From NCBI RefSeq assembly GCF_057098645.1, contig NZ_CM169472.1: a stretch of 64,000 nt of DNA; one strand, written 5' to 3'. A program made the position numbers and the translations under genes. The notes under the pieces were generated by a model. That model worked only from the letters and a program-made list of their open reading frames with translations. It was not told the origin of the DNA and searched no databases. Shown here in pieces: positions 54,981 through 55,002 of this stretch. Within the stretch, counting starts at the first letter, position 1; every line of letters starts with the position of its first letter.

Positions 54981-55002
54981 AAAATGACAATTTTGTCATT
55001 TT
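54981..55002. promoter_or_regulatory. CusR box in the cusR-cusC divergent region
   Basis: Perfect inverted repeat aaaatgacaa-tt-ttgtcatttt. Confidence 0.75.

What the first reader, a model, noticed from the sequence alone, without database searches (positions are those of the whole stretch)
54981..55002. Perfect CusR box between cusR and cusC
aaaatgacaa-tt-ttgtcatttt matches the known CusR recognition palindrome in the divergent cusRS/cusCFBA control region, confirming the copper-responsive regulatory architecture is intact.
Basis: partly seen in the sequence, partly recalled or inferred. Interest (0 to 1): 0.2.

Follow-up and report, generated by a model that had tools for sequence, protein, structure and literature searches.

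The report
Known CusR operator in cus locus
The 22-base perfect palindrome between cusR and cusC is the published E. coli binding site for the copper-sensing regulator CusR, unchanged from strain K-12, so it is real but ordinary and already explained.

Summary
Window 54981-55002 reads AAAATGACAATTTTGTCATTTT: two perfect 10-nt inverted arms around TT. It is the only match in the window (0.01 expected). It lies in the 156-bp spacer between divergent cusRS (- strand) and cusCFBA (+ strand) of an E. coli chromosome.

It matches the published CusR box AAAATGACAAnnTTGTCATTTT exactly and is identical to K-12 MG1655. All six cus genes are full length, and CusR is 227/227 identical to K-12. The box is a clear phylogenetic footprint: 18/22 columns are invariant against 37/125 for the rest of the spacer.

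- HprR binds the same spacer and recognises the same sequence as CusR.
- The right arm plus a third TGTCA 11 bp downstream (55005-55009) is the published PhoB site. This window has a T-to-C change at 55003 in its spacer.
- That third, in-phase, promoter-proximal half-site occurs in every cus/sil-type locus I examined. The arrangement of an inverted repeat plus a direct repeat was shown experimentally for the homologue AgrR.

Verdict: already known, low interest. The only mildly open point is whether the third half-site serves CusR itself in E. coli.

The parts
54981..55002 (.). CusR box: AAAATGACAA-TT-TTGTCATTTT, perfect 10-nt inverted arms. The core reads as 6-4-6: ATGACA (54984-54989), ATTT, TGTCAT (54994-54999).
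   Evidence: sequence, uniqueness, perfect arms. (published consensus). (identical in K-12). (18/22 columns invariant across E. coli, Klebsiella cus, an Enterobacter plasmid and sil plasmids, against 37/125 elsewhere in the spacer; Fisher p = 5e-6).
55004..55010 (+). Third half-site CTGTCAC. Its TGTCA (55005-55009) lies 11 bp downstream of the right-arm TGTCA (54994-54998), in phase, on the cusC side only.
   Evidence: positions of TGACA/TGTCA. (GTCAC invariant). (GTCA at this offset on exactly one side in 14/14 exact-box loci with a cusR-like gene, against 3/23 others). (same arrangement shown experimentally for AgrR).
54994..55011 (+). Published PhoB site (K-12: TGTCATTTTTCTGTCACC). Here it reads TGTCATTTTCCTGTCACC, with a T-to-C change at 55003 in the spacer between the two half-sites.
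   Evidence: Fitzgerald 2023, Table 1: ChIP-seq peak 595521 at cusR/cusC; cusC expression 208 in wild type against 50 in delta-phoB. (Yang 2012: ChIP-chip, reporter assay and gel shift). (the SNP).
55033..55038 (+). Inferred cusC -10 hexamer TAAAGT. It implies a start site near 55045 and places the box centre near -53.5. This is inferred, not mapped.
   Evidence: GTAAAGT invariant in the first five aligned spacers; one plasmid reads TTAGAGT, so TA..GT is kept. (Providencia has TACGAT, TACTAT, TACCAT or TACACT at the same offset, 31-36 nt after the box, although its CusC is only about 41% identical). No transcription start data could be retrieved.
54941..54968 (-). cusR promoter-like site: -35 TTGCCA (54968-54963), 16-nt spacer, -10 TAGAAT (54946-54941).
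   Evidence: 10 of 12 matches; the only promoter-like hit in 54850-55150. (the -10 is kept as TAGAAT or TAAAAT in Klebsiella, sil plasmids and Providencia).
54232..54915 (-). cusR: OmpR/PhoB-family response regulator, 227 aa.
   Evidence: Response_reg plus Trans_reg_C. (227/227 identical to K-12 CusR). (annotation).
52800..54242 (-). cusS: sensor histidine kinase, 480 aa.
   Evidence: CusS sensor, HAMP, HisKA and HATPase_c domains. (full length, 471/480 identical to K-12).
55072..61204 (+). cusCFBA efflux operon: cusC 55072-56454, cusF 56478-56810, cusB 56826-58049, cusA 58061-61204.
   Evidence: all full length, no internal stops, 98-100% identical to K-12.

Best explanation
The palindrome is the CusR box, the operator through which phosphorylated CusR switches on the divergent cusRS and cusCFBA operons when CusS senses periplasmic Cu(I) or Ag(I). 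CusR is an OmpR/PhoB-family response regulator.

Shown here or in the literature: the sequence equals the published site; it lies in the shared 156-bp control region; CusR binds this spacer in vivo and in vitro; copper induction of cusC needs CusRS.

Inferred from the sequence: a CusR dimer sits on the two inverted half-sites ATGACA/TGTCAT. The box centre lies about 53 bp upstream of a cusC start site near 55045 (-10 TAAAGT, with no good -35) and about 57 bp upstream of a cusR start site near 54934 (-35 TTGCCA, -10 TAGAAT). One site could therefore recruit RNA polymerase in both directions.

The operator is composite. HprR recognises the same sequence. The right arm and a third in-phase TGTCA at 55005-55009 form the published PhoB site. 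That third half-site may also help CusR act on the cusC side, as shown for the homologue AgrR.
For: Exact match to the published box and identity with K-12. Location between annotated cusR and cusC. A single CusR ChIP-chip peak at this spacer and a gSELEX peak for CusR and for HprR there. Activation of both operons from the box. Copper-dependent expression from the cusC promoter in a reporter-based footprinting study. CusR has receiver and winged-helix domains. The footprint is conserved across cus and sil loci. The same box lies beside cusR-like genes in Providencia, Citrobacter, Shimwellia, Psychromonas, Acinetobacter and a Rhodocyclaceae genome. PhoB binds here and regulates cusC. The AgrR precedent for an inverted repeat plus a promoter-proximal direct repeat.
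Against: None against the identification itself. The gaps are these.
- The primary footprint papers could not be read.
- The transcription start sites are inferred, and an alternative cusC -10 (TATAAA/TAAAAT, 55045-55052) is not excluded.
- No CusR-DNA structure exists, so the head-to-head arrangement on the palindrome is inferred.
- The 22-mer alone is not specific to CusR: copies with a CG centre lie beside LacI-family regulators in other genera.
- One gSELEX paper describes unphosphorylated CusR as repressing cusCFBA, which differs from the plain activator picture.
Confidence: 0.96

Rival explanations
1. The element is mainly a PhoB (Pho box) or HprR operator, and the CusR assignment is secondary.
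For: PhoB ChIP-seq and ChIP-chip peaks lie at this spacer, with a roughly four-fold drop of cusC in delta-phoB. HprR gives its strongest gSELEX peak here. TTGTCATTTTCCTGTCAC resembles the Pho box direct repeat (sites listed).
Against: The PhoB site uses only the right arm, so it does not explain conservation of the left arm AAAATGACA. Copper induction depends on CusRS. The box travels with cusR-like genes across genera and on sil plasmids. The Pho site lies about one helical turn further upstream of the inferred -10 than I recall for canonical Pho boxes (recalled, not tested). These regulators are additional users of the site, not alternatives to CusR.
Confidence: 0.03
2. It is a chance AT-rich palindrome, or a transcribed hairpin such as a terminator or attenuator.
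For: As RNA, 54971-55012 folds to -10.8 kcal/mol, z = -3.6. Exact copies occur in unrelated AT-rich genomes.
Against: Only 0.01 matches are expected in the window. The sequence footprint is strongly conserved without compensatory changes. No terminator-like site was found in the spacer. The element lies upstream of both inferred start sites, so it should not be transcribed. The stem is A/U rich.
Confidence: 0.01

Closest known systems
E. coli K-12 CusR box (AAAATGACAAnnTTGTCATTTT; Munson et al. 2000; Yamamoto and Ishihama 2005)
   Same: The 22 bp are identical, in the same position between cusR and cusC. The flanks differ at only 3 of 196 bases (54925, 55003, 55045).
   Different: Nothing in the box itself. 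The window carries C at 55003, just 3' of the box, and T at 55045, near the inferred cusC start site. It also lacks the K-12 ERIC-like insertion between cusC and cusF.
HprR/CusR box at hprR-hiuH (CATTACAAAATTGTAATG)
   Same: A palindrome in a divergent regulator/target spacer, bound by both CusR and HprR. It too has a third in-phase half-site 11 bp further on, on the target-gene side.
   Different: The half-site is TGTAA instead of TGTCA at all three positions. It is a different locus and is not in this window.
sil and pco 'copper boxes' on plasmids (silR-silC spacer, silE and pcoE promoters)
   Same: The silC box AAAATGACAA[T/C]ATTGTCATTAT followed by CCTGTCAC aligns with the window box. The silE promoter has TAATGACATCTTTGTCATTTA with an in-phase TGACA on the silE side. 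pcoE has TGACAAnnTTGTCAT.
   Different: The arms are imperfect (9 of 10). The cognate regulators are SilR or PcoR. The elements are plasmid-borne.
AgrR box of Cupriavidus metallidurans (ATKACANNNNTGTMAT plus a direct repeat; PMC7380067)
   Same: [quoted passage not shown] Both the inverted and the promoter-proximal direct repeat are needed for activation.
   Different: A different organism, regulator and half-site (ATTACA). For the E. coli cus operator, a role of the third half-site in CusR binding has not been tested, as far as I could find.
Pho box (PhoB direct repeat)
   Same: Two TGTCA-type repeats spaced 11 bp apart (54994-55011). PhoB binds them in vivo and in vitro.
   Different: The site overlaps only the right arm of the box. 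The window has a T-to-C change in its spacer.

Membership tests
CusR box (E. coli CusR operator) | Sequence AAAATGACAANNTTGTCATTTT | tested here: met
   20 of 20 specified positions match. The consensus is as quoted in PMC11195947. The box is identical to K-12.
CusR box (E. coli CusR operator) | Located in the spacer between divergent cusRS and cusCFBA | tested here: met
   ORFs and RefSeq annotation; Pfam domains.
CusR box (E. coli CusR operator) | A cognate CusR and CusS are encoded and intact | tested here: met
   CusR is 227/227 identical to K-12. CusS is 480 aa and full length.
CusR box (E. coli CusR operator) | Bound by CusR, with copper- and CusRS-dependent activation | not testable with these tools
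   Reported for the identical K-12 sequence: ChIP-chip, gSELEX, reporter assays. Not measured for this strain.
CusR box (E. coli CusR operator) | Conserved as a footprint in orthologous and paralogous control regions | tested here: met
   18/22 invariant columns against 37/125 in the rest of the spacer, p = 5e-6. An exact box lies beside cusR-like genes in at least 6 further genera.
Inverted repeat plus in-phase direct repeat operator (AgrR type) | A 6-4-6 inverted repeat with an extra half-site in helical phase on the promoter-proximal side | tested here: met
   ATGACA-ATTT-TGTCAT, then TGTCA 11 bp further on the cusC side. The third site is conserved in 14/14 cusR-associated loci.
Inverted repeat plus in-phase direct repeat operator (AgrR type) | The direct repeat contributes to binding and activation by the cognate regulator | not testable with these tools
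   Needs mutagenesis or footprinting with CusR. Only PhoB has been assigned to this half-site in E. coli.
Pho box (PhoB site) | Two TGTCA-type direct repeats with 11-bp periodicity, bound by PhoB | tested here: met
   The sequence is present at 54994-55011. Binding is published for the K-12 allele. The effect of the 55003 T-to-C change was not tested.

The most novel reading that the evidence does not exclude
The functional E. coli CusR operator may be tripartite rather than a simple palindrome. Under this reading, the third in-phase TGTCA (55005-55009) is bound by CusR (and HprR) itself. In E. coli it has so far been assigned only to PhoB. It would give a symmetric site its bias toward the cusC promoter.

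Support is circumstantial.
- It is present on exactly one side in 14/14 cusR-linked loci.
- It is present at the silE promoter on the silE side.
- At hiuH the half-site changes to TGTAA at all three positions together.
- AgrR provides an experimental precedent.

The T-to-C change at 55003 in this lineage could then slightly alter PhoB or CusR affinity.
Probability: 0.45. Interest if true: 0.3.

Novelty: already known. Interest (0 to 1): 0.1.

Why it matters
It matters little beyond annotation. The result confirms that this strain carries the standard chromosomal copper/silver efflux regulon with an unaltered operator. The one useful refinement concerns predicting CusR-family targets. The 22-mer string alone is not diagnostic, because exact copies lie beside LacI-type regulators elsewhere. 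The palindrome together with the in-phase third half-site on the target-gene side is a much more specific signature.

Tried and rejected
- I tried to read the primary papers (Munson 2000; Yamamoto and Ishihama 2005). They are not held, so I relied on verbatim secondary quotation.
- I looked for a mapped cusC or cusR transcription start site in the literature and supplements and found none. The promoter geometry is therefore inferred from conservation.
- I considered TATAAA/TAAAAT (55045-55052) as the cusC -10. I prefer TAAAGT (55033-55038). It is nearly invariant across cus and sil spacers, and Providencia has a TA...T hexamer at the identical offset from the box. This is not proven.
- I looked for a mirrored third half-site on the cusR side. 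None exists.
- I considered a hairpin or terminator reading and rejected it.
- I first assumed the window was colinear with E. coli O145 RM9872 and used that annotation for window 1-47000. One search showed this is wrong, because the RM9872 prophage is absent from the window, so I corrected the coordinates.
- There is no solved CusR-DNA complex to settle the binding geometry.

Full report
**Observation.** Window 54981-55002 reads AAAATGACAATTTTGTCATTTT. The repeat finder reports two 10-nt arms, 100% complementary, separated by 2 nt. The pattern AAAATGACAANNTTGTCATTTT, allowing up to 3 mismatches, occurs once in the 64-kb window against 0.01 expected from shuffles. The whole window holds only two perfect inverted repeats with arms of at least 10 nt and a spacer of at most 4 nt; simulated sequences gave a mean of 0.4.

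**Context.** The element lies in a 156-bp spacer between a 227-aa ORF on the - strand (54232-54915) and a 460-aa ORF on the + strand (55072-56454). The 301 bases around it are 100% identical to E. coli chromosomes annotated there as cusR and cusC. A match is present in 5335 of 5426 complete E. coli genomes. Window 47850-62150 differs from E. coli O145 RM9872 at 1 base in 14,301. The order is nfrA, nfrB, cusS, cusR | cusC, cusF, cusB, cusA, pheP. CusR carries Response_reg and Trans_reg_C domains. CusS carries the CusS sensor, HAMP, HisKA and HATPase_c domains.

[quoted passage not shown] Other papers describe the 'CusR box' in this spacer as the site from which phosphorylated CusR turns on both operons. 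It is also the only CusR ChIP-chip peak on the chromosome. The window box is identical to K-12 MG1655. Over 196 aligned bases only three differ: 54925 A/G, 55003 C/T and 55045 T/C. I could not open the primary papers.

**Intactness.**
- All six are full length with ATG starts and no internal stops.
- CusR is 227/227 identical, and CusF and CusB are also identical to K-12.
- CusS, CusC and CusA are 98-99% identical.
- CusC is 460 aa here and 457 aa in K-12, because K-12 has a TGG-to-TGA change.
- K-12 also has a 134-bp insertion between cusC and cusF that the window lacks.

**Conservation.** I aligned the spacer with other E. coli, a Klebsiella chromosomal cus locus, an Enterobacter plasmid cus-like locus and two sil plasmids. 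Mean column identity was about 65%, yet AAAATGACA and TTGTCATT are invariant. Using four distinct lineages, 18/22 box columns are invariant against 37/125 in the rest of the spacer (Fisher p = 5e-6).

An exact-pattern scan of one genome for each of 100,044 species found 37 loci. Fourteen have a cusR-like gene in the locus (Escherichia, Providencia, Citrobacter, Shimwellia, Psychromonas, Acinetobacter, a Rhodocyclaceae genome). Others are AT-rich genomes, or copies with a CG centre; two of these were checked and lie beside LacI-family regulators. The string alone is therefore not specific to CusR.

**Other regulators use the same DNA.** gSELEX shows that HprR gives its strongest peak in this spacer and recognises the same sequence as CusR. 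Reading the sequence, I noticed that the right arm is followed by a third TGTCA (55005-55009), exactly 11 bp after the right-arm TGTCA. Together they give TTGTCATTTTCCTGTCAC, which looks like a Pho box. This is published. Fitzgerald et al. 2023 list a PhoB ChIP-seq site TGTCATTTTTCTGTCACC at cusR/cusC, with cusC expression of 208 in wild type against 50 in delta-phoB. Yang et al. 2012 showed ChIP-chip, reporter and gel-shift evidence. The window differs from K-12 by T-to-C at 55003, inside that site's spacer.

**The third half-site is more general than PhoB regulation would require.**
- It is invariant (GTCAC) in all aligned cus and sil spacers.
- It is present at the silE promoter on the silE side.
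- At hprR-hiuH, the palindrome CATTACAAAATTGTAATG is followed 11 bp later by a third TGTAA on the hiuH side. The half-site sequence therefore changes at all three positions together.
- Among the 37 exact-box loci, GTCA at the in-phase offset occurs on exactly one side in 14/14 loci with a cusR-like gene and in 3/23 others (Fisher p = 1e-7). These lineages are not independent.
- One of those three other loci lies upstream of a multicopper oxidase.
[quoted passage not shown] Both the inverted repeat and the promoter-proximal direct repeat contribute to activation.

The window operator has the same layout: ATGACA-ATTT-TGTCAT, then CTGTCAC. Whether CusR itself uses the third site in E. coli is not shown. 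No CusR-DNA structure exists.

**Promoter geometry (inferred).** On the - strand there is a good promoter-like site: -35 TTGCCA at 54968-54963 and -10 TAGAAT at 54946-54941. Its -10 is conserved in Klebsiella, sil plasmids and Providencia. On the + strand, TAAAGT (55033-55038) is nearly invariant across cus and sil spacers. Providencia has a TA...T hexamer at the identical distance, 31-36 nt after the box. With start sites near 55045 and 54934, the box centre (54991.5) lies near -53.5 for cusC and near -57.5 for cusR. The third half-site abuts the position where a -35 would lie, where no good -35 exists. This fits activator-dependent transcription of cusC and a more self-sufficient cusR promoter. 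I found no start-site data to confirm this.

**Rivals.** A chance palindrome is excluded by the statistics and the conservation. A transcribed hairpin is unlikely. The RNA fold of -10.8 kcal/mol simply reflects the palindrome, no terminator-like site is present, and the element lies upstream of both inferred start sites. 'PhoB or HprR site instead of CusR site' fails, because the PhoB site does not explain the left arm and because copper induction needs CusRS. These regulators are extra users of a composite operator.

**Verdict.** The element is the already known CusR box, unchanged from K-12, in an intact cus locus. Novelty: already known. Interest: low (0.1). The only mildly open question is the role of the conserved third half-site for CusR itself.

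Noticed in passing
window 56440-56480 (cusC end to cusF start); L002 3960-4135: K-12 MG1655 has a TGG-to-TGA change that shortens CusC by 3 aa. It also has a 134-bp insertion between cusC and cusF that contains the ERIC-primer-like sequence ATGTAAGCTCCTGGGGATTCAC. The window has neither: CusC is 460 aa and the cusC-cusF gap is 23 bp.
   Followed up: partly
window 45526-45575 (next to tRNA-Arg at about 45497-45573): The window is not colinear with O145 RM9872 here. About 31.6 kb of RM9872 is absent: a lambdoid, DLP12-like prophage with an IS3 element, plus ompT. The tRNA-Arg gene therefore runs straight into the envY/ybcH/nfrA region, and a 50-bp segment is shared at the junction.
   Followed up: partly
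window 36776-36799: This is the only other perfect inverted repeat in the window with 10-nt arms: CCGGATGCGA-GTTT-TCGCATCCGG. By offset mapping it lies between the convergent cysS and ybcI genes, so it is probably a terminator-type hairpin.
   Followed up: no
window 55007-55026 and 55052-55071: A 20-nt direct repeat at 80% identity (TCACCGGAAAATCAGAGCCT / TCACCAGAAATTATGAGCCT), spaced 45 bp apart. The first copy starts in the third half-site and the second ends at the cusC start codon. It is unexplained and may be chance.
   Followed up: no
L007 3609-4720 (E. coli O19:H7 strain 730V1): In this strain an IS903B element is inserted just after CAGAGC, equivalent to window position about 55025. 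It separates the intact CusR box from the inferred cusC -10. A second IS (ISKpn26) splits cusC. This is a natural knock-out of the operon's control region.
   Followed up: partly
L012 1529-1550, L034 4221-4242: Exact matches to the CusR-box pattern with a CG centre (AAAATGACAACGTTGTCATTTT) lie beside LacI-family regulator genes in a Comamonadaceae genome and in Klebsiella spallanzanii. A third copy (L016 3299-3320, Xylophilus) has a neighbouring ORF with a similar N-terminus that was not scanned. None has a third half-site. They are probably LacI-type operators that share the string by convergence.
   Followed up: partly
L044 3094-3773 (Citrobacter koseri NCTC10786): The cusR homologue next to a perfect box matches CusR in three pieces in three different frames. 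This suggests two frameshifts, either a pseudogene or assembly errors.
   Followed up: no
L048 2370-2400 (K-12 hprR-hiuH spacer): The HprR/CusR box CATTACAAAATTGTAATG is followed by a third TGTAA exactly 11 bp after the right-arm TGTAA, on the hiuH side. This mirrors the layout at cusC.
   Followed up: partly
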